Assembly: GCA_035445995.1 (NCBI GenBank)
Contig: DAOMRS010000001.1
Location: 369,203 to 433,202 of the forward strand
From: Candidatus Babelota bacterium
Lineage (GTDB): Bacteria > Babelota > Babeliae > Babelales > Vermiphilaceae
Length of the DNA: 64,000 bases
Direction of reading: 5' to 3'
Both the position numbers and the translations under genes were made by a program. Shown here one piece after another: positions 3,125 through 11,083 of this stretch (its first letter is position 1; each line of letters opens with the position of its first letter). The notes below the pieces were generated by a model. The model was given only the letters and a program-made list of their open reading frames with translations. It had not been told where the DNA came from and searched no databases.

Positions 3125-3314
3125 ACTTTCAGTATAACAAATGAGGACAAAACAACTAGGGTATAATAGCCTATAATTGTTACATATAGAATAATTAGTT
3201 GATTATTTCCTCCCAAAACACCTTATTTTAGGGCCATCCATTTGCTAAAAAAACCTGAAAAGATATTATAATGAAGTATTACAAGTCATTTTCACGCTTT
3301 GGGGGTTATTCCGC

Positions 3315-5066
3315 ATGATTCGCAAAAAGTATATACGTATTGTTACTACCCTATTTATTAGTGGGTTTTTGGCTGCCCAAGCTAGTGCTATGGAACAAGG
3401 CGCACAACAGCTTACCAATGCCCAACTCCAGACAATCCAAGCTGAAGCAGCACAGGCTATACAAGAAATGAACCAGAATGGCACAACTATAGAAGCCATT
3501 CTGCAGGAAATGGCACAGGATGAAGCACAGCATGCTGCCCCATTCAACACGGGCATACCGCAGATAGATGAGCTTACGCAACAAGCAGGTATTCTCCTTC
3601 CTGCCATACCCAACTTTGAAAAAGATCGTCAACGTGCACAAAATCAGAATACCGTATTACTTGGTCATCCAAAAGTACCGGTTGCACTGTATAAACGTGA
3701 CCTGTATGAATTACCGTTTTTTGCTGCAGATCTTGCTATTGCGTATGCAGGGTTTCATGTTTATAAACAATACCGCATAGAACACTTGTACAAACTATTG
3801 ACCACCCATACAGAAACAACCATCGAAGAACTTGAAAAAATTCAAAGTCTACAAAAACAAATTGAGAGCAAATCACTTGATGCTGCACAACAAGAAACTA
3901 CTCAAAAAGAGCTTGATACCTTATGGGAAAAATTTGGTGAACAACATGCATATATTGGATACAACCCCTTCAAGCTCGATATGCTCCTGCCACTCATTGG
4001 TACCATGATTGGACATGCTGCAAGCAGTTATGCACAAAGCAAAATTATCCTCAAAAACTCTTTTGTACCGGAAGCGCAATTTGCATACACAAAAAAAGCG
4101 GATGGTAGTTATGAACGTTTTGAACTTGATCGCATGTATACACCAACAATTGATGATTACAAAAAGTTGCTTGATACAAATCAGGGACACAATCATAACG
4201 ATGTTGCAACAGCTCTAAAAACAGCAGCAACATTTTATGGGTACGTAGGATTGTCTTCAGCATTCTGGTCAAAATCACCCCTTGCCGCTATGACCGCTTT
4301 AAAATTTTTTATTATCCCTAATCCGAACACACCAATTACTGACAACATGCCTGACATAGGGCCACTCATACCTGATGAAGCAATAGAAAAAGGTTGGTAT
4401 AAAATTACTGGCCTACCCGACTGGCTTCACACGGTAAAAAATGCACCCGCAACGCGTTATGTAATGGAAGCTATTATCCTCGGACGAATATTAATCCTAA
4501 TCGATCGTGCATATCACGGTGCATGGATAAAACATGTGCAAACAAATACCAATGAATTGATAACTCTATTAAAACAGTATCAGGCAACTCACGAATTATC
4601 CAATAAAAATCCAGACAAACAACATGCACAACAACAACTGAAAGATTTCATTGCAACCGGAACTACCATTACTTCATGGCGCACGGCATGCCAAGATTTA
4701 TTTGTTCATAAAGTTATGGGGCGCGCAAGTGTACAAGTCCGCGTAGTCAGTTGGCTGACTACCGCAATTAGTGCAAGCTTGTTATGGAAAAGCCGCACTC
4801 CTATCAAATTTATATATAATGGTGCAAAAACCGGCATTATTTCAACTGAAGCTCTGCTAATTGGTGGATTAATAACAGCGTATTATGGTGGCGCATTATT
4901 CGGCCCTATAGTAGCTCAATCAGCATACATAGTGTATCAAGATATAAAACATGTTGCACAAAGTATAAAAAATTATGTGTTGAAAAATTGGCAATCAAAA
5001 AAAGAAGATCCGGCAATAGTAGCAACAGATCAAGAAGAAATTAATAACGTATCAGTAACTAATTAA
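3315..5066 (+). CDS. hypothetical secreted/multi-pass membrane protein (Q-rich coiled-coil N-region)
   Basis: 583 aa. Signal-like N-terminus (IVTTLFISGFLAAQASA), a Q/A-rich helical segment, and several hydrophobic segments including C-terminal ones (ALLIGGLITAYYGGALFGPIVA). It is followed 12 bp later by the AAA+ gene. No family recognised. Confidence 0.6.
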   Translation: MIRKKYIRIVTTLFISGFLAAQASAMEQGAQQLTNAQLQTIQAEAAQAIQEMNQNGTTIEAILQEMAQDEAQHAAPFNTGIPQIDELTQQAGILLPAIPNFEKDRQRAQNQNTVLLGHPKVPVALYKRDLYELPFFAADLAIAYAGFHVYKQYRIEHLYKLLTTHTETTIEELEKIQSLQKQIESKSLDAAQQETTQKELDTLWEKFGEQHAYIGYNPFKLDMLLPLIGTMIGHAASSYAQSKIILKNSFVPEAQFAYTKKADGSYERFELDRMYTPTIDDYKKLLDTNQGHNHNDVATALKTAATFYGYVGLSSAFWSKSPLAAMTALKFFIIPNPNTPITDNMPDIGPLIPDEAIEKGWYKITGLPDWLHTVKNAPATRYVMEAIILGRILILIDRAYHGAWIKHVQTNTNELITLLKQYQATHELSNKNPDKQHAQQQLKDFIATGTTITSWRTACQDLFVHKVMGRASVQVRVVSWLTTAISASLLWKSRTPIKFIYNGAKTGIISTEALLIGGLITAYYGGALFGPIVAQSAYIVYQDIKHVAQSIKNYVLKNWQSKKEDPAIVATDQEEINNVSVTN

Positions 5067-5078
5067 GAGGAATATTTT

Positions 5079-6596
5079 ATGAATATACTAAAACAAATAC
5101 ATGCTATATTGCTTGCCATCATGGCATGCCAACCATTTATGGCATTTGGTATGGCCCCAAGTACTTCGGCACCACAGCAACCACAACAAGACATCCCACA
5201 ATTATTACGCTATCTACAATATGGTTTAGACGCTGCAGGTCATGCCGGTGCAACGGTTGTACGAGCAGGTGTGAATGCCGTAGACCTCATTCGCCAAGCC
5301 AACCAAGATCGTGCAGACAAACGTCGCAAAGAACTCATGAACATTATAAGCAACTATCCACCAACAAGTAAAATCAGGCAAGATGCTGAAGCTCAATTAG
5401 ATGCACTGCAAAAACAAGAAGCAGAAACAAACAAAGCACTCAATGATATTCAAGCTGGCGGTGCAAAAACCTTGGTAGATATGGGGCAAGCTGGCGTTGC
5501 AGTATTACGCAAATTTGGTGAAGAAACTGCAGAACGTCAAACTAAAGTACAAGTTGCAGCTGCACAAGGCTACCAGACGCGAAAAGGTATGGTTGAATCA
5601 GTAGAAAAAGTTATGGAAGTATTTACTAATACTAACACGCGTAACAAAGCAGTAGTGTTCTTGACACTCGGTACATTGGGCACCGTTGGTACATTCTATG
5701 GTCTAAAGTTCGGGTTTCAAGTGCTCAATGATTGGTACAACACACCGGAGCTTGCTGAAAAAACTTCACTCCTACCGTGGTACAAAAAATTGTTCGGCAA
5801 AACTACACAATCAGTTGCATTGAGTGATGTAATTTTTAACGCAAAGTTAAAAACAGAAACTGATGAGCTGGCACATATTTTACAAAACACGGTGAACAAC
5901 AATGGCTACTTTGAACATGTATTATTATATGGCGCTCCAGGTACCGGTAAAACATTATTAGCAACTGCTTTAGCAGACAACTGTGGACTTGAATATATCT
6001 ATTTTGCAGCTTCCGCATTTGAAGATCATACAACAGAAGAAGCCGTACGTAAGGTAAAACAACTCTTTAATTTTGCAAAAGCATCACGCAAAAAACTTAT
6101 GATCATTATTGACGAATCAGAGATGATATTCCAAAGTCGTCAATCTGGCATTGCATTGAGTGAAAAAATGAGTGCCGTACGCACAGAAATTATGGGACGT
6201 ATGGGAACGCCACAAAAAGACTTTATGATCATTGCGTTAACTAACCGTCCGGGTGAATTTGATAAAGCTTTTGATAGCCGATTTACCACTCAAATAGAAG
6301 TTAGTGCACCTGCAGCAGAACAACGCAAACAAATACTTGAATTATATATTAATAAATTGCTTGCCAGCCAGGGTGAAACCGACATTAAGCAACACCCATT
6401 ATTCACGCAAGCGTATATTAATCAGATAAATAGTAAATTGAATAACTTTGTTGGTCGTGATATTTTTAACCTAGTTGTTGCAATTCAAAATGCAGTCAAT
6501 GCAACTGAAGATAAAAAAATCACCAAAGATTTGGTTGATCGTATTGTTGAACGTAAAATTGCACAAAAACAAAAAGATCATAAAAATTACGCATAA
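5079..6596 (+). CDS. AAA+ ATPase with N-terminal leader, coiled coil and central TM helix (ATAD3-like architecture)
   Basis: Walker A LLYGAPGTGKTLLA and Walker B LMIIIDESE. The arginine-finger region is FDKAFDSRF. Upstream lie a coiled coil (KRRKELMN...QLDALQKQEAETNKALNDIQ) and a TM segment (AVVFLTLGTLGTVGTFYGLKFGF). Confidence 0.85.
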   Translation: MNILKQIHAILLAIMACQPFMAFGMAPSTSAPQQPQQDIPQLLRYLQYGLDAAGHAGATVVRAGVNAVDLIRQANQDRADKRRKELMNIISNYPPTSKIRQDAEAQLDALQKQEAETNKALNDIQAGGAKTLVDMGQAGVAVLRKFGEETAERQTKVQVAAAQGYQTRKGMVESVEKVMEVFTNTNTRNKAVVFLTLGTLGTVGTFYGLKFGFQVLNDWYNTPELAEKTSLLPWYKKLFGKTTQSVALSDVIFNAKLKTETDELAHILQNTVNNNGYFEHVLLYGAPGTGKTLLATALADNCGLEYIYFAASAFEDHTTEEAVRKVKQLFNFAKASRKKLMIIIDESEMIFQSRQSGIALSEKMSAVRTEIMGRMGTPQKDFMIIALTNRPGEFDKAFDSRFTTQIEVSAPAAEQRKQILELYINKLLASQGETDIKQHPLFTQAYINQINSKLNNFVGRDIFNLVVAIQNAVNATEDKKITKDLVDRIVERKIAQKQKDHKNYA

Positions 6597-6620: not shown

Positions 6621-7355
6621 ATGAAAAAACTAAGTCTCATACTGTCTCTTCTAGTGAGCTTTCCTGTTAACCTATGGCCAATAGAACCTGTACAAACCAA
6701 AAATGGCATCAATATCAGCATTATCGGTTGCAATAACCCTACTAATAAAATAGTACCACTCCAGGTTGGTGGCTTGCCATTTGAACTTAATGAAAATCTT
6801 ACGGTACAAGACTTTACCGGTCAAGATATATATCCACTAGCAATTACGGTTACCAATACAACTGATAAACCACTGGTATTAATGCCATATTCAACGCGCA
6901 TTCCGCTTATTACCAACAAAGAAGAAATCACTAAGAAATTGCATCACCGAAACTACATAAAACCGCTCTTATTCTGGCTTGGATCCAGAATTATACAGAC
7001 TTTAATTATGGCTCCTATAGTGCTTAACAAGTCATTCAATATGGCTAACAGAGGTATGACACAAGAGGAAATTATGCTAACTCTATCTCAAGATCCAACC
7101 GTTATATTATCAAACCTATTTGATAGAGCAGCACTTTTTGCAACACCGGTATACTGGTGGTACTTGCGTAAATTAAACCAAGCAATTGATGCGGCGATTG
7201 GTCAATACTTGCTCGACAATAATGTAACCATTATGCCCGGTCAAACCATCAAAAAAATACTTGCTTGCAAATATCGCCCCGGAAGCATGCTCAATTTGAA
7301 TTTTTATGATCTATCCGGCCAAGTAGCCGAATCAATTGATCTTGCAATTAACTAA
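6621..7355 (+). CDS. hypothetical secreted protein
   Basis: 244 aa with signal peptide MKKLSLILSLLVSFPVNLW. It is the third gene of the same-strand cluster and is followed by a terminator hairpin. Confidence 0.6.
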   Translation: MKKLSLILSLLVSFPVNLWPIEPVQTKNGINISIIGCNNPTNKIVPLQVGGLPFELNENLTVQDFTGQDIYPLAITVTNTTDKPLVLMPYSTRIPLITNKEEITKKLHHRNYIKPLLFWLGSRIIQTLIMAPIVLNKSFNMANRGMTQEEIMLTLSQDPTVILSNLFDRAALFATPVYWWYLRKLNQAIDAAIGQYLLDNNVTIMPGQTIKKILACKYRPGSMLNLNFYDLSGQVAESIDLAIN

Positions 7356-9141: not shown

Positions 9142-9224
9142 CTATATACTTTAACTTCATTGATTTCTATCTCCTTAAATTGCTATATTAAAATTATATG
9201 CAGATTCAAAAAAAGGAGATATCT

Positions 9225-9620
9225 ATGAAATATGCACATATAGCGTTGATTACCGCTGTTGCGATTGCAAGCCAATCACATGCAGCTGTATTTACGGTAC
9301 AAAACAAGGGATCAAAAGCTATTGAGGCAGCACCTATGTGGTCTGGCAGCTCTGAATCTTATACTACTATCAAACCGGGGCAAGAGGTCCGTTTTGACTC
9401 AGGACTCAATGCGGTAACCGGTATCAGATGGCGTTTGGTAACAAGTAATAATCCAACACAGGGTACCGAATGTTATCAATACTATAAAGCAACTAAAGCA
9501 CCACATTTTGCAGGAGCACTTAACTTGGGCGGTAACATCCAGATACTTGACGCCGGTTCCTACTCATGGTACTTCGGCGTTGATGGATCAGGTTCAGCAG
9601 TTGCAACACCAGGTAGATAA
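9225..9620 (+). CDS. hypothetical small secreted protein
   Basis: ORF 9198..9620. The preferred start is ATG 9225, preceded by AAGGAG. Signal peptide MKYAHIALITAVAIASQSHA. No family recognised. Confidence 0.6.
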   Translation: MKYAHIALITAVAIASQSHAAVFTVQNKGSKAIEAAPMWSGSSESYTTIKPGQEVRFDSGLNAVTGIRWRLVTSNNPTQGTECYQYYKATKAPHFAGALNLGGNIQILDAGSYSWYFGVDGSGSAVATPGR

Positions 9621-9648
9621 CTTATTTTTGAGCTTACCAAAAAAATTG

Positions 9649-9673
9649 AGAGGAGCTTAGGCTCCTCTTTTTC
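9649..9673 (+). terminator. Rho-independent terminator
   Basis: AGAGGAGC-uuag-GCUCCUCU hairpin followed by TTTTT. Confidence 0.7.
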
Positions 9674-9771
9674 TGAGTAATCCTCCCTTACCATTGCCAA
9701 AAGCCCCATTTATGGCAAACTATACATATAATTATCAAATACCTATCCACTTTATTTTATTCGGGGGATAT

Positions 9772-10368
9772 ATGGCAAAAATAGATTTAAACCTTATTCA
9801 AGAACTTCGCCAACGTACCGGTCTTGGCATGATGGATTGCCGCAAAGCATTGGAAGAAACCAATGGCGATATAGAAAAAGCAATCGAATTATTGCGTAAA
9901 AAAGGTGCTGCTGTTGCCGCTAAACGGGCAGACAAAGATACTGCACAAGGGATTGTACACGCGTACATTCACCCGGGTAGTCAACTTGGTGTATTGGTTG
10001 AGCTCAACTGTGAAACAGATTTTGTTGCACGCACACAAGATGTTAAAAACTTCGCACATGATCTATGCATGCACATTGCTGCGCTTAAACCACTTTACCT
10101 TGCGCCAGCAGATGTTGATCCTAAATTTTTAGAACATGAAAAAAGTATTCTAAAAGAACAACTTGCCGGATCAGGAAAACCGGAAAAAATTTTGAATCAA
10201 ATTATCGAAGGTAAAGTAAACAAACTTTATTCAGAAATTTGTTTGCTTAAACAGCCATTCGTTAAAAATGATCAATTTACCGTAGAACAAGCACTCGAAG
10301 AATTAATGGCAAAAACTGGTGAGCGTATTAACATTCGCCGTTTTGCACGGTATGAAATTGGTGCTTAA
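9772..10368 (+). CDS. tsf: translation elongation factor Ts
   Basis: N-terminal UBA-like EF-Ts signature IQELRQRTGLGMMDCRKALEETNGDIEKAIELLRKKG, and NCETDFVAR. The start was moved to ATG 9772 (MAKIDL), preceded by GGGGGA. Confidence 0.92.
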   Translation: MAKIDLNLIQELRQRTGLGMMDCRKALEETNGDIEKAIELLRKKGAAVAAKRADKDTAQGIVHAYIHPGSQLGVLVELNCETDFVARTQDVKNFAHDLCMHIAALKPLYLAPADVDPKFLEHEKSILKEQLAGSGKPEKILNQIIEGKVNKLYSEICLLKQPFVKNDQFTVEQALEELMAKTGERINIRRFARYEIGA

Positions 10369-10370
10369 TA

Positions 10371-11072
10371 ATGGACCCCAAACGCATACTACTTAAACTG
10401 ACCGGCACTATTTTGCTGGATACAGATGGCAAACTCAGCTCTGTGCATATTACACAACTTGTGCGTCAGTTATATGCGTTACGTAGTTCGCATCAGTTTG
10501 GCATTGTAATTGGTGGCGGCAATTTCTTCCGCGGAAACCAACACGGTACCGCGATGGGATTGCAGCCTACCACTGCACATCAGGTTGGCATGCTTGCAAC
10601 CATGATGAATGGACTCATTATACGTAATATATGTACACAACTGGGATTAAACACCAGTGTGCTCTGCGCATTACCATGTCCCACCGTAGGTCAATTGGTA
10701 TCCGAGCACACTATACAACAAGCACAACAACGTGGTGACATTATTATTTTTACGGGTGGCACAGGTAATCCATTTTTTACCACAGACACCACTGCTGTAC
10801 TGCGCGCATTACAAATGGGTGCAGACGAGATCTGGAAAGCAACTGATGTTGATGGAATTTACCACGCAGACCCACGCAAGCAACCTGATGCTCGGTTTAT
10901 ACCGGCTACGACATACAACGAGGCACTCCGTCAAAATTTGGCCATCATGGACAGCACGGCATACACACTCGCCGCACAACATAATTTGGTAATTCGTGTG
11001 TTTAATGCTTTTGCACCTGATGCATTTATACAAGCAGCACACAATCAAACATTTGGCAGTATTTTAGCATAA
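10371..11072 (+). CDS. pyrH: UMP kinase
   Basis: LKLTG..., GIVIGGGNFFRG and FTGGTGNPFFTTDTTA motifs typical of PyrH. It sits in the conserved tsf-pyrH-frr order. Confidence 0.9.
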   Translation: MDPKRILLKLTGTILLDTDGKLSSVHITQLVRQLYALRSSHQFGIVIGGGNFFRGNQHGTAMGLQPTTAHQVGMLATMMNGLIIRNICTQLGLNTSVLCALPCPTVGQLVSEHTIQQAQQRGDIIIFTGGTGNPFFTTDTTAVLRALQMGADEIWKATDVDGIYHADPRKQPDARFIPATTYNEALRQNLAIMDSTAYTLAAQHNLVIRVFNAFAPDAFIQAAHNQTFGSILA

Positions 11073-11083
11073 AGGAAAAATTC

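What the first reader, a model, noticed from the sequence alone, without database searches (positions are those of the whole stretch)
5079..6596. ATAD3-like AAA+ ATPase (leader, coiled coil, single TM, AAA+) in a bacterium
Seen in sequence: there is an N-terminal leader, a long coiled coil, one central TM helix (AVVFLTLGTLGTVGTFYGLKFGF) followed by NTPELAEKTS, and then an intact AAA+ module (LLYGAPGTGKTLLA, IIIDESE).

Both the order of elements and several blocks match my recollection of the eukaryotic mitochondrial inner-membrane ATPase ATAD3. The block SEKMSAVRTEIMGRMGTPQKDFMIIALTNRPGEFDKAFDSRFTTQIEVSAPAAEQRKQILELYINK compares with ATAD3 [66 protein letters not shown].

ATAD3 is generally treated as a eukaryotic protein. 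A bacterial copy with a secretion-type leader could be a horizontally acquired effector that targets or mimics organelle membrane-contact machinery. It could alternatively be a bacterial relative informative about ATAD3 origin.
Basis: partly seen in the sequence, partly recalled or inferred. Interest (0 to 1): 0.65.

Follow-up and report, generated by a model that had tools for sequence, protein, structure and literature searches.

The report
Bacterial relative of mitochondrial ATAD3 ATPase
This gene from an intracellular bacterium (phylum Dependentiae) encodes a membrane-anchored ATPase that is a true relative of ATAD3, a protein that the papers I could search describe only from eukaryotic mitochondria; it sits in a conserved two-gene unit with an unknown partner, which gives a way to study where ATAD3 came from and how it works.

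Summary
Window 5079-6596 (+) is a 505-aa ORF with a Sec-type leader, a helical N-region, one Gly/Ala/Thr-rich hydrophobic segment and an intact AAA+ module.

The ATAD3 reading holds from the hydrophobic segment to the C-terminus (about 320 aa):
- The bacterial-family profile hits Pfam-verified eukaryotic ATAD3 at E 1e-84 to 1e-70, each in one near-full-length stretch.
- A eukaryote-only ATAD3 profile ranks this gene first in its genome (187 bits; the probable FtsH scores 53).
- A careful tree separates ATAD3 plus the bacterial family from FtsH/CDC48 with 100/100 support.

The helical part of the ATAD3 N-domain is not detectable in this protein. Two bacterial relatives do pass Pfam's ATAD3_N threshold.

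All traced bacterial members are from Dependentiae. 46 of 201 sampled genomes have a clear copy, often several. Gene composition is native.

New here: a leader-bearing partner gene (3315-5066) lies directly upstream in 10/10 clade I loci and 8/12 clade II loci.

The direction of transfer is unresolved (AU p 0.37-0.49). The most likely mode of action is an inner-membrane ATPase with the ATPase in the cytoplasm and the helical region in the periplasm, the same orientation as ATAD3. A secreted effector is the main rival. No searchable paper reports this family.

The parts
3242..3269 (+). Candidate promoter of the two-gene unit (TTGCTA-16-TATTAT)
   Evidence: Consensus match only (9/12). The number of such matches in the region is not above shuffles (14 found vs 15.6 expected), so this is a weak lead.
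3315..5066 (+). Partner gene (583 aa): leader, variable helical/Q-rich stretch, conserved blocks (QNTLL, GLYKxD, H..NPFK, KLKKFV..GH), hydrophobic C-terminal helices. No known family.
   Evidence: A homologue lies directly upstream on the same strand of the ATPase gene: 7/10 clade I loci by tblastn, and 10/10 have a leader-bearing ORF there; 8/12 clade II loci by HMM. No Pfam, NCBIfam or PADLOC match. AF2 pLDDT 62; no Foldseek match (best E 0.32).
5067..5078 (+). 12-nt spacer with a Shine-Dalgarno-like GAGGA (5067-5071), 7 nt before the ATG
   Evidence: Read directly from the sequence. No terminator-like site lies between the two genes. Co-transcription is inferred.
5079..6596 (+). ATAD3-family AAA+ ATPase gene (505 aa + stop)
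5079..5153 (+). Sec-type leader (aa 1-25, MNILKQIHAILLAIMACQPFMAFGM)
   Evidence: Hydropathy 1.76. A leader is present in all 14 members of alignment A1. The cleavage site was not tested with a dedicated predictor.
5154..5648 (+). Helical N-region (aa 26-190), predicted periplasmic
   Evidence: AF2 helices at 39-92, 98-163 and 166-181; hairpin at ~65-125 with pLDDT 77-89. Homologous between bacterial clades I and II (hhalign 96.8%) but not detectably to the eukaryotic ATAD3 N-region (1.2%).
5649..5717 (+). Gly/Ala/Thr-rich hydrophobic segment (aa 191-213)
   Evidence: Aligns with the ATAD3 membrane segment. KD 1.55, against 1.97 and 2.27 for the two membrane helices of this genome's probable FtsH. 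Group means: eukaryotic ATAD3 1.36 (includes two mis-extracted rows, so an underestimate), clade I 1.43, clade II 1.29.
5739..5771 (+). Juxtamembrane motif NTPELAEKTSL (aa 221-231), family signature P-x-L-x-x-E/D-T/S-S
   Evidence: P223, T229 and S230 are invariant in A1. The same motif (PSLIRESS / PTLVRETT) is in eukaryotic ATAD3 and is absent from FtsH/CDC48.
5919..6305 (+). AAA+ ATPase core (aa 281-409): Walker A 285-292 (nt 5931-5954), Walker B D345/E346 (nt 6111-6116), sensor-1 N389, Arg finger R401
   Evidence: Pfam PF00004 E=5e-25. All catalytic positions are invariant in the family. AF2 pLDDT 85-93.
6306..6593 (+). Lid domain with ATAD3-type VGRD (R460 at the sensor-2 position) and a long C-terminal helix (aa 410-505)
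   Evidence: G459 and R460 are invariant. ATAD3 has SGRE here; FtsH/CDC48 have SGAD/VGAD. The BLASTP alignment to Solanum ATAD3 runs to residue 499.

Best explanation
WHAT IT IS (shown). Window 5079-6596 encodes a catalytically intact AAA+ ATPase that is a genuine homologue of mitochondrial ATAD3, from the hydrophobic membrane segment through the juxtamembrane motif, the ATPase core and the lid to the C-terminal helix. It belongs to an old, native gene family. All bacterial members traced here are from Dependentiae. The family splits into at least two deep clades and is often multi-copy. The gene is almost always preceded by a partner gene of unknown fold (here 3315-5066), with which it is very probably co-transcribed.

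HOW IT MOST LIKELY WORKS (inferred).
1. The Sec leader carries the helical N-region across the bacterial inner membrane.
2. The Gly/Ala/Thr-rich segment stops transfer, so the ATPase stays in the bacterial cytoplasm where ATP is available. This is the orientation of FtsH in bacteria. It is also the orientation of ATAD3 in mitochondria: helical region in the intermembrane space, ATPase in the matrix.
3. The ATPase oligomerises at the inner face of the membrane, as classic-clade AAA+ proteins do, and couples ATP hydrolysis to work on or through the envelope.
4. It does this together with the partner, which has a leader and hydrophobic C-terminal helices and is therefore predicted to be a membrane-anchored periplasmic protein.
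5. As in ATAD3, pore loop 1 lacks the aromatic residue of threading unfoldases. A membrane-organising or scaffolding role therefore seems more likely than processive protein unfolding.

ORIGIN. One ancient exchange between a eukaryote and the Dependentiae lineage; the direction is not resolved.
For: Homology:
- The exhaustive profile search puts Pfam-verified ATAD3 (PF12037 E to 7e-105) at E 1e-84 to 1e-70, each in one stretch over profile positions ~30-505. Generic AAA domains score 60-90 bits over the core only.
- BLASTP against Solanum ATAD3: E=1e-33, aa 189-499.
- A eukaryote-only ATAD3 profile ranks this gene first of 1233 ORFs: 187 bits, against 53 for the probable FtsH.
- Careful tree: ingroup 100/100 against FtsH/CDC48.
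- Shared derived characters: juxtamembrane motif, degenerate pore loop 1, single-Arg SRH, Arg at the sensor-2 position, C-terminal helix.

Active site: Walker A/B, N389, R401 and R460 are invariant.

Native and old: GC3 0.281 vs 0.279+-0.038, codon-usage distance at the 63rd percentile. Full synteny with G144. 46/201 phylum genomes at E<=1e-60. Clade II is also in Dependentiae genomes. The intermediate contigs are Dependentiae-like.

Partner. 12-nt spacer with GAGGA.

Topology: leader plus one hydrophobic segment in most members. ATAD3 topology from PMC10419812. Precedent for Dependentiae using host mitochondrial inner-membrane proteins in their own membrane: mitochondrial carrier family transporters in Babela (PMC4378268).
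Against: The central segment is only marginally hydrophobic: KD 1.55 here, bacterial mean 1.35, and 32% of members below 1.2. The membrane helices of this genome's probable FtsH score 1.97-2.27. Stop-transfer is therefore not assured.

Charges flanking the segment do not clearly obey the positive-inside rule (R187/K189 before it, K210 after it).

Patchy distribution, multi-copy tandem arrays and a fast-evolving N-region are typical of host-interaction genes. In this phylum, leader-bearing proteins are commonly assumed to be secreted.

Oligomeric state and any interaction with the partner are untested. Outgroups in the trees were limited to FtsH and CDC48 D1/D2.
Confidence: 0.55

Rival explanations
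1. Secreted effector. After Sec export, and possibly type II secretion or outer-membrane vesicles, the protein reaches the host cell, with or without its partner. There its marginally hydrophobic segment inserts into a host membrane (the mitochondrion or the membrane around the parasite), and the ATAD3-like ATPase mimics or interferes with host ATAD3-dependent membrane organisation.
For: The leader is conserved. The hydrophobic segment is marginal, like those of exported membrane effectors. Distribution is patchy with paralogue expansion in tandem arrays, and the N-region evolves fast. The Dependentiae member Chromulinavorax remodels and expands the host mitochondrion, and 44% of its proteins carry signal sequences (PMC6561590). 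Babela's leader-bearing proteins are interpreted as secreted (PMC4378268). A type II secretion system is conserved in the phylum (PMC4776705).
Against: A leader carried by ~44% of proteins discriminates little. A Sec-exported protein with a hydrophobic stop-transfer segment would normally stay in the inner membrane. The bacterial proteins lack the ATAD3 N-terminal part, which extends to the outer mitochondrial membrane in ATAD3. At 26-29% identity to ATAD3, co-assembly with the host protein is unlikely. The tightly coupled partner also has hydrophobic C-terminal helices, which fits a membrane complex in the bacterium. There is no direct evidence of secretion.
Confidence: 0.28
2. Ordinary bacterial membrane AAA+ (an FtsH-like protein that lost its protease) whose likeness to ATAD3 is convergent or due only to the shared AAA+ core.
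For: Pfam finds only generic AAA domains in this protein. PDB and Foldseek best hits are generic classic-clade ATPases. NCBIfam gives weak FtsH/PAN/CdvC hits far below their cut-offs.
Against: Genuine ATAD3 gives the same generic PDB hits, because no ATAD3 structure exists. Homology extends outside the AAA core on both sides. There is a gap of more than 130 bits between this gene and the probable FtsH with a eukaryote-only ATAD3 profile. Ingroup support is 100/100. Bacterial relatives pass the Pfam ATAD3_N threshold.
Confidence: 0.02
3. Recent horizontal acquisition from the current host, or eukaryotic contamination of the assembly.
For: ATAD3 is otherwise eukaryotic. Dependentiae live inside protists and carry many eukaryote-like genes.
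Against: Native GC3 and codon usage. The gene is embedded between mnmA and argS, with the same order in a related genome. Only 26-29% identity to any eukaryotic ATAD3 tested. Two deep bacterial clades across many families of the phylum. The gene has a bacterial leader, a Shine-Dalgarno site and operon structure.
Confidence: 0.01

Closest known systems
Eukaryotic ATAD3 (human ATAD3A/B, plant ATAD3, and others; Pfam ATAD3_N PF12037 + AAA PF00004), mitochondrial inner-membrane AAA+ protein
   Same: The order of elements. The Gly/Ala-rich membrane segment followed by P-x-L-x-x-E-T/S-S. The pre-Walker-A helix. An AAA+ core with degenerate pore loop 1, single-Arg SRH and Arg at the sensor-2 position. 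A long C-terminal helix. 26-29% identity over 244-361 aligned columns. The predicted orientation relative to a double membrane.
   Different: Encoded in a bacterial genome. A Sec leader replaces the ATAD3 N-terminus. The helical N-region of this protein is not detectably homologous to ATAD3_N. It has a dedicated upstream partner gene with no eukaryotic counterpart found. The family is multi-copy with tandem arrays.
FtsH (bacterial inner-membrane AAA+ protease)
   Same: Classic-clade AAA+ fold (Foldseek TM-score 0.75-0.78 on the FtsH ATPase domain). Predicted topology of N-terminal hydrophobic helix, periplasmic region, second hydrophobic helix, cytoplasmic ATPase.
   Different: No M41 protease domain: the protein ends 96 residues after the AAA core. 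No aromatic pore loop. RPGRFD is replaced by SRF. The sensor-2 position is Arg, not Ala. The genome has a separate 609-aa probable FtsH, which scores only 53 bits with the ATAD3 profile.
Msp1/ATAD1 (membrane-anchored single-ring AAA+ extractase of mitochondria and peroxisomes)
   Same: One membrane anchor plus one classic-clade AAA+ domine; among the top structural neighbours.
   Different: Msp1 has an N-terminal anchor without an extramembrane helical region, and canonical aromatic pore loops. Sequence affinity is far lower than to ATAD3: no Msp1-like protein of that length appears among the 150 best profile hits. Its pore loops were not examined here (own knowledge).
Leader-bearing AAA+-Ulp1 fusion family of Babela massiliensis (PMC4378268)
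   Same: Dependentiae-specific, expanded, leader-bearing AAA+ proteins presumed to act in host interaction.
   Different: A different architecture (C48 peptidase fusion, no ATAD3-type membrane segment or motifs). It was described as specific to Babela, whereas the present family is phylum-wide.

Membership tests
ATAD3 family | Classic-clade AAA+ module with intact Walker A, Walker B, sensor-1 and Arg finger | tested here: met
   PF00004 E=5e-25. G285-T292, D345/E346, N389 and R401 are invariant in the family alignment. AF2 pLDDT 85-93.
ATAD3 family | Specific sequence affinity to ATAD3 above all other AAA+ groups, in both directions | tested here: met
   Bacterial profile to Pfam-verified ATAD3: 255-300 bits, single stretch. 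Eukaryote-only ATAD3 profile to this gene: 187 bits, first of 1233 ORFs, probable FtsH 53 bits. Tree ingroup 100/100. Limitation: outgroups were FtsH and CDC48 only.
ATAD3 family | Gly/Ala-rich membrane segment followed by the juxtamembrane P-x-L-x-x-E-T/S-S motif, upstream of the ATPase | tested here: met
   aa 191-213 and 221-231 align with the corresponding ATAD3 segments. This corresponds to roughly the last 50 positions of Pfam ATAD3_N.
ATAD3 family | N-terminal ATAD3_N (PF12037/DUF3523) coiled-coil domain | tested here: not met
   This protein: no PF12037 hit at E<=1; hhalign of the pre-membrane region against the eukaryotic N-region gives 1.2%. In relatives: P0201 28.7 bits and P0239 39.1 bits (above the 25-bit cut-off); P0009, in the window's own clade, 20.2 bits. 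The signal is concentrated at the model's C-terminal end; the helical part alone reaches at most 33.6% probability.
ATAD3 family | ATAD3-type derived motifs: no aromatic pore loop 1, single-Arg SRH, Arg at the sensor-2 position (SGRE), extended C-terminal helix | tested here: met
   Alignment with FtsH and CDC48 D1/D2 as contrast. R460 is invariant.
ATAD3 family | Location in the mitochondrial inner membrane, with the ATPase in the matrix and the N-terminus reaching the outer membrane | not testable with these tools
   The gene lies in a bacterial chromosome. Only the analogous orientation in a double-membraned envelope can be inferred.
FtsH | C-terminal M41 zinc-metalloprotease domain | tested here: not met
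   No protease domain in the Pfam or NCBIfam scans. TIGR01241 scores 68.6 bits against a cut-off of 600. The protein ends at residue 505.
Iet anti-phage system (IetA/IteA ATPase) | IetA-type ATPase at family score, paired with the IetS protease | tested here: not met
   PADLOC IetA scores 63 bits over the AAA core only. NCBIfam IteA scores 52 bits against a cut-off of 510. The neighbours have no PADLOC match.

The most novel reading that the evidence does not exclude
Eukaryotic ATAD3 is not a eukaryotic invention. On this reading it was acquired early in eukaryote evolution from a Dependentiae-like intracellular bacterium. In that bacterium an envelope-spanning AAA+ ATPase with a dedicated partner already had the helical-region-out, ATPase-in orientation that ATAD3 keeps in mitochondria. 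The bacterial two-gene module would then be the ancestral form of a disease-relevant organiser of mitochondrial membranes.

In favour: at least three deep bacterial lineages against essentially one eukaryotic clade, and outgroup rooting falls among bacterial sequences.

Against: all traced bacterial members come from a phylum that lives inside eukaryotes and imports host genes, and bacterial monophyly is not rejected (AU p 0.37-0.49).
Probability: 0.25. Interest if true: 0.85.

Novelty: new variant of a known kind. Interest (0 to 1): 0.6.

Why it matters
ATAD3 is essential in animals and is linked to human neurological disease. Its molecular mechanism and its evolutionary origin are both unclear, and no ATAD3 chain appeared in my sequence searches of the PDB.

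A large, diverse bacterial branch of the family offers three things:
- **Natural sequence variation.** It shows which features are conserved across the whole family: the membrane segment, the juxtamembrane motif, Arg at the sensor-2 position, and a degenerate pore loop.
- **A conserved partner protein.** Nothing comparable is known for ATAD3, and the partner points to a membrane complex that can be tested.
- **A concrete test of origin.** It allows testing whether a key mitochondrial inner-membrane protein was exchanged between eukaryotes and their intracellular parasites, and in which direction.

For Dependentiae biology, it is either an envelope machine specific to these parasites or a candidate for their manipulation of host mitochondria.

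Tried and rejected
1. The scan of named genomes (genome contigs) with the family alignment was useless. It says nothing about distribution outside Dependentiae.
2. The idea that the partner is a split-off ATAD3 N-domain (gene fission or fusion) was rejected: hhalign probability <=0.2% against the ATAD3 N-region, full-length ATAD3 and the bacterial N-regions.
3. Linking the window clade's N-region to ATAD3_N through intermediate bacterial sequences gave no significant signal.
4. Partner characterisation led nowhere: no Pfam, NCBIfam or PADLOC match, only 3 hits in the word-indexed search, and no structural neighbour (best E 0.32).
5. Known anti-phage system: rejected.
6. Recent HGT or contamination: rejected.
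7. Lipoprotein: the Cys in the leader (IMAC) does not fit a lipobox and is not conserved in position (read), so it is not claimed.
8. The first PDB search showed no ATAD3 hit. That is uninformative, because a genuine ATAD3 also finds only CDC48/p97.
9. My first 'bacterial-like' label was wrong for P0238 and P0243, which are eukaryotic. It was corrected in the second tree.
11. The small-ORF arrays near the module in other genomes are absent from this genome.
Full report
**Observation.** Window 5079-6596 (+) is a 505-aa ORF.
- a Sec-type leader (aa 1-25)
- long predicted helices over aa 39-181
- a Gly/Ala/Thr-rich hydrophobic segment (aa 191-213)
- the motif NTPELAEKTS (aa 221-230)
- an AAA+ module with Walker A GAPGTGKT (285-292) and Walker B D345/E346

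The window block is 18/66 identical to it.

**Organism and context.** The window is C1:369203-433202 of a 1.10-Mb, 3-contig, ~98% complete genome. The closest named relative of the protein is from Candidatus Babela massiliensis. Housekeeping genes on related contigs are 58-78% identical to this genome's copies. The organism is therefore a member of Dependentiae (TM6), obligate intracellular bacteria of protists (PMC6561590, PMC4378268). The gene lies between mnmA and argS. Its GC3 (0.281) and codon usage are typical of the genome (0.279+-0.038; 63rd percentile).

**Is it ATAD3-like?** Pfam sees only a generic AAA domain in this protein, and the best PDB hits are AFG2/Rix7/p97. That is uninformative, because a genuine ATAD3 gives the same generic hits and no ATAD3 chain turned up. 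The decisive tests were these:
1. An exhaustive hmmsearch of 1.84 billion representatives with a 14-member family profile. After about 85 full-length bacterial-type hits, it returns proteins of 590-715 aa at E 1e-84 to 1e-70, each matched in one stretch over profile positions ~30-505. Seven of the ten I scanned carry Pfam ATAD3_N at E down to 7e-105. Two of these are plant proteins, from Solanum and Macleaya.
2. BLASTP of the window protein against Solanum ATAD3 gives E=1e-33 and 28% identity. The alignment runs from the hydrophobic segment (aa 189) to aa 499.
3. Generic AAA domains (CDC48 D1/D2 and this genome's probable FtsH) score only 60-90 bits against the family core, and only over the ATPase core. 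ATAD3 proteins score 197-263 bits over the whole core.
4. In the reciprocal direction, a profile built from 18 eukaryotic ATAD3 proteins ranks the window gene first among the genome's 1233 ORFs (187 bits). A 596-aa paralogue is second (172 bits) and the probable FtsH third (53 bits).
5. A careful IQ-TREE (LG+C20 PMSF, 66 rows) separates ATAD3 plus the bacterial family from FtsH/CDC48 with 100/100 support.
6. The groups share derived characters that FtsH and CDC48 lack: the membrane segment plus P-x-L-x-x-E-T/S-S; no aromatic pore loop 1; a shortened SRH with one Arg (SRF/DRID versus RPGRFD); Arg at the sensor-2 position (VGRD/SGRE versus SGAD); and a long C-terminal helix.

**The N-domain.** There is no hit at E<=1. 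The region upstream of the hydrophobic segment gives hhalign probability 1.2% against the eukaryotic N-region, although it is clearly homologous between the two bacterial clades (96.8%).

The family as a whole is not devoid of signal. Two Dependentiae proteins pass Pfam's 25-bit threshold: P0201 at 28.7 bits over model positions 40-264, and P0239 at 39.1 bits. A member of the window's own clade (P0009) reaches 20.2 bits. Most of that score comes from the model's last ~50 positions, which are the membrane segment and the juxtamembrane motif. The helical part alone reaches at most 33.6% probability. I therefore treat homology as shown from the membrane segment onward, and as possible but unproven for the helical region.

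**Distribution.** In 201 genomes sampled across the phylum, 90 match at E<=1e-30. That cut-off is leaky, because this genome's own distant paralogue scores 1.5e-39. By my count from the table, 46 genomes match at E<=1e-60, many with 2-6 copies and some in tandem arrays.

There are two deep, well-supported bacterial clades. Clade I (100/100) contains the window protein. Clade II (100/99) is in families f10 and f12 of the phylum. A few intermediate Dependentiae sequences fall outside both. Every bacterial member I traced is from Dependentiae. The attempt to survey named genomes of other phyla failed for technical reasons.

**Direction of transfer.** Eukaryotic ATAD3 forms one clade (100/99). It contains land plants, green algae, oomycetes, a coral, a nematode, a fish and a mammal, and its internal order roughly follows organismal groups. 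That fits old vertical inheritance in eukaryotes.

With outgroup rooting, the eukaryotic clade sits among the bacterial lineages, but the backbone is unresolved. AU tests do not reject a single bacterial clade (p=0.49 on 143 rows; p=0.37 on 66 rows with corrected labels). The direction of the ancient exchange therefore remains open.

**A conserved partner.** The 583-aa gene upstream (3315-5066) ends 12 nt before the ATPase start codon. The spacer contains a GAGGA Shine-Dalgarno-like sequence, and no terminator-like site lies between the genes.
- A homologue lies directly upstream on the same strand in 7 of 10 clade I loci by tblastn, and all 10 have a leader-bearing ORF of about 360-560 aa there. 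Babela has two such pairs in tandem.
- A profile of clade I partners also finds the partner upstream of clade II genes in 8 of 12 loci. The pair therefore predates the split between the two clades.
- The partner has a leader, conserved helical blocks and hydrophobic C-terminal helices. It has no Pfam, NCBIfam or PADLOC match and no structural neighbour, and it is unrelated to ATAD3_N.
- The downstream 244-aa leader-bearing ORF (6621-7355) is not conserved.

**Mechanism.**
- *Shown:* an intact active site, a confident AAA+ fold, a leader plus one hydrophobic segment, and operon coupling to the partner.
- *Inferred:* the leader exports the helical N-region. The hydrophobic segment anchors the protein, with the ATPase in the cytoplasm. 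This is the FtsH orientation, and it matches ATAD3's orientation relative to the mitochondrial double membrane (PMC10419812). The ATPase oligomerises and acts with the periplasmic, membrane-anchored partner. The degenerate pore loop argues against a threading unfoldase.

**The main rival** is a secreted effector. In its favour:
- The hydrophobic segment is marginal: KD 1.55 here and 1.35 on average in the bacterial family, similar to eukaryotic ATAD3 (1.36) and well below the 1.97-2.27 of this genome's probable FtsH. Two eukaryotic rows in that table were mis-extracted and should be ignored.
- The family is patchy, expanded and fast-evolving at its N-terminus.
- A Dependentiae member remodels its host's mitochondrion.

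Against it: a leader carried by 44% of proteins discriminates little, and a hydrophobic stop-transfer segment plus a membrane-anchored partner fit a resident complex better. I put the resident model at about 0.55 and the effector model at about 0.28.

**Novelty.** No paper in the searchable library mentions ATAD3 together with Dependentiae, TM6, Babela or related names. The Babela and TM6 genome papers do not describe this family. NCBI names the Babela protein 'AAA family ATPase', and JGI's automatic annotation labels at least three related metagenomic proteins, two of them bacterial-type (P0005, P0014), 'ATAD3A/B'.

Earlier notes from this scan, on other Dependentiae genomes, report the same family and partner. 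They agree with my results, but they are not independent evidence.

I classify this as a new variant of a known kind: a bacterial, leader-bearing, partner-coupled branch of the ATAD3 family.

Noticed in passing
Own genome C1:18295-20085 (-), outside the window: A second ATAD3-family gene: 596 aa, leader-bearing. It scores 172 bits with the eukaryote-only ATAD3 profile and 135 bits with the family core, from the membrane segment to the C-terminus. It sits on a very long branch and has no partner-family gene next to it.
   Followed up: partly
window 6621-7355 (+): A 244-aa leader-bearing ORF immediately downstream of the ATPase gene. It has no Pfam, NCBIfam or PADLOC match and no detectable homologue in the ten related loci, so it is not part of the conserved module, despite the earlier three-gene reading of this stretch.
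   Followed up: partly
window 9198-9620 (+): A 140-aa leader-bearing ORF between argS and tsf with no Pfam match.
   Followed up: no
L107 (G144:C1) 9594-11083: In the syntenic relative, a second weaker up583-like match (318-aa ORF) directly precedes a 211-aa C-terminal ATPase fragment, downstream of the intact pair. It looks like a decaying tandem duplicate of the module.
   Followed up: no
L104 11010-13353, L108 3898-5588, L111 12293-14343, L113 11114-13153: Arrays of 3-4 small (165-200 aa) leader-bearing paralogous ORFs lie next to the partner-ATPase pair in several genomes. They form a loose family (blastp E to 1e-25 within loci, some hits across loci). tblastn finds none in the window's genome.
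   Followed up: partly
L130 10227-12479 (-): Next to the ATAD3_N-positive Dependentiae protein P0239 lie two further small AAA genes (356 and 391 aa) on the opposite strand.
   Followed up: no
L127 9710-17015 (+): Directly downstream of the bacterial ATAD3-like P0201 lies a tandem array of ~340-360-aa genes, six of which carry ankyrin-repeat hits. The 336-aa leader-bearing ORF upstream of P0201 does not match the partner profile.
   Followed up: partly
L126 (P0238) and P0243: Two eukaryotic ATAD3-like proteins (the P0238 contig carries eukaryotic-type ribosomal protein L26 and MRG genes, GC 56%) lack any recognisable ATAD3_N. They form a separate, strongly supported pair outside the main eukaryotic ATAD3 clade.
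   Followed up: partly
P0266 (Logan assembly, 17.9-kb contig): A protein 97% identical to the window's partner gene product exists in an independent public assembly, so a near-identical strain has been sequenced elsewhere.
   Followed up: no
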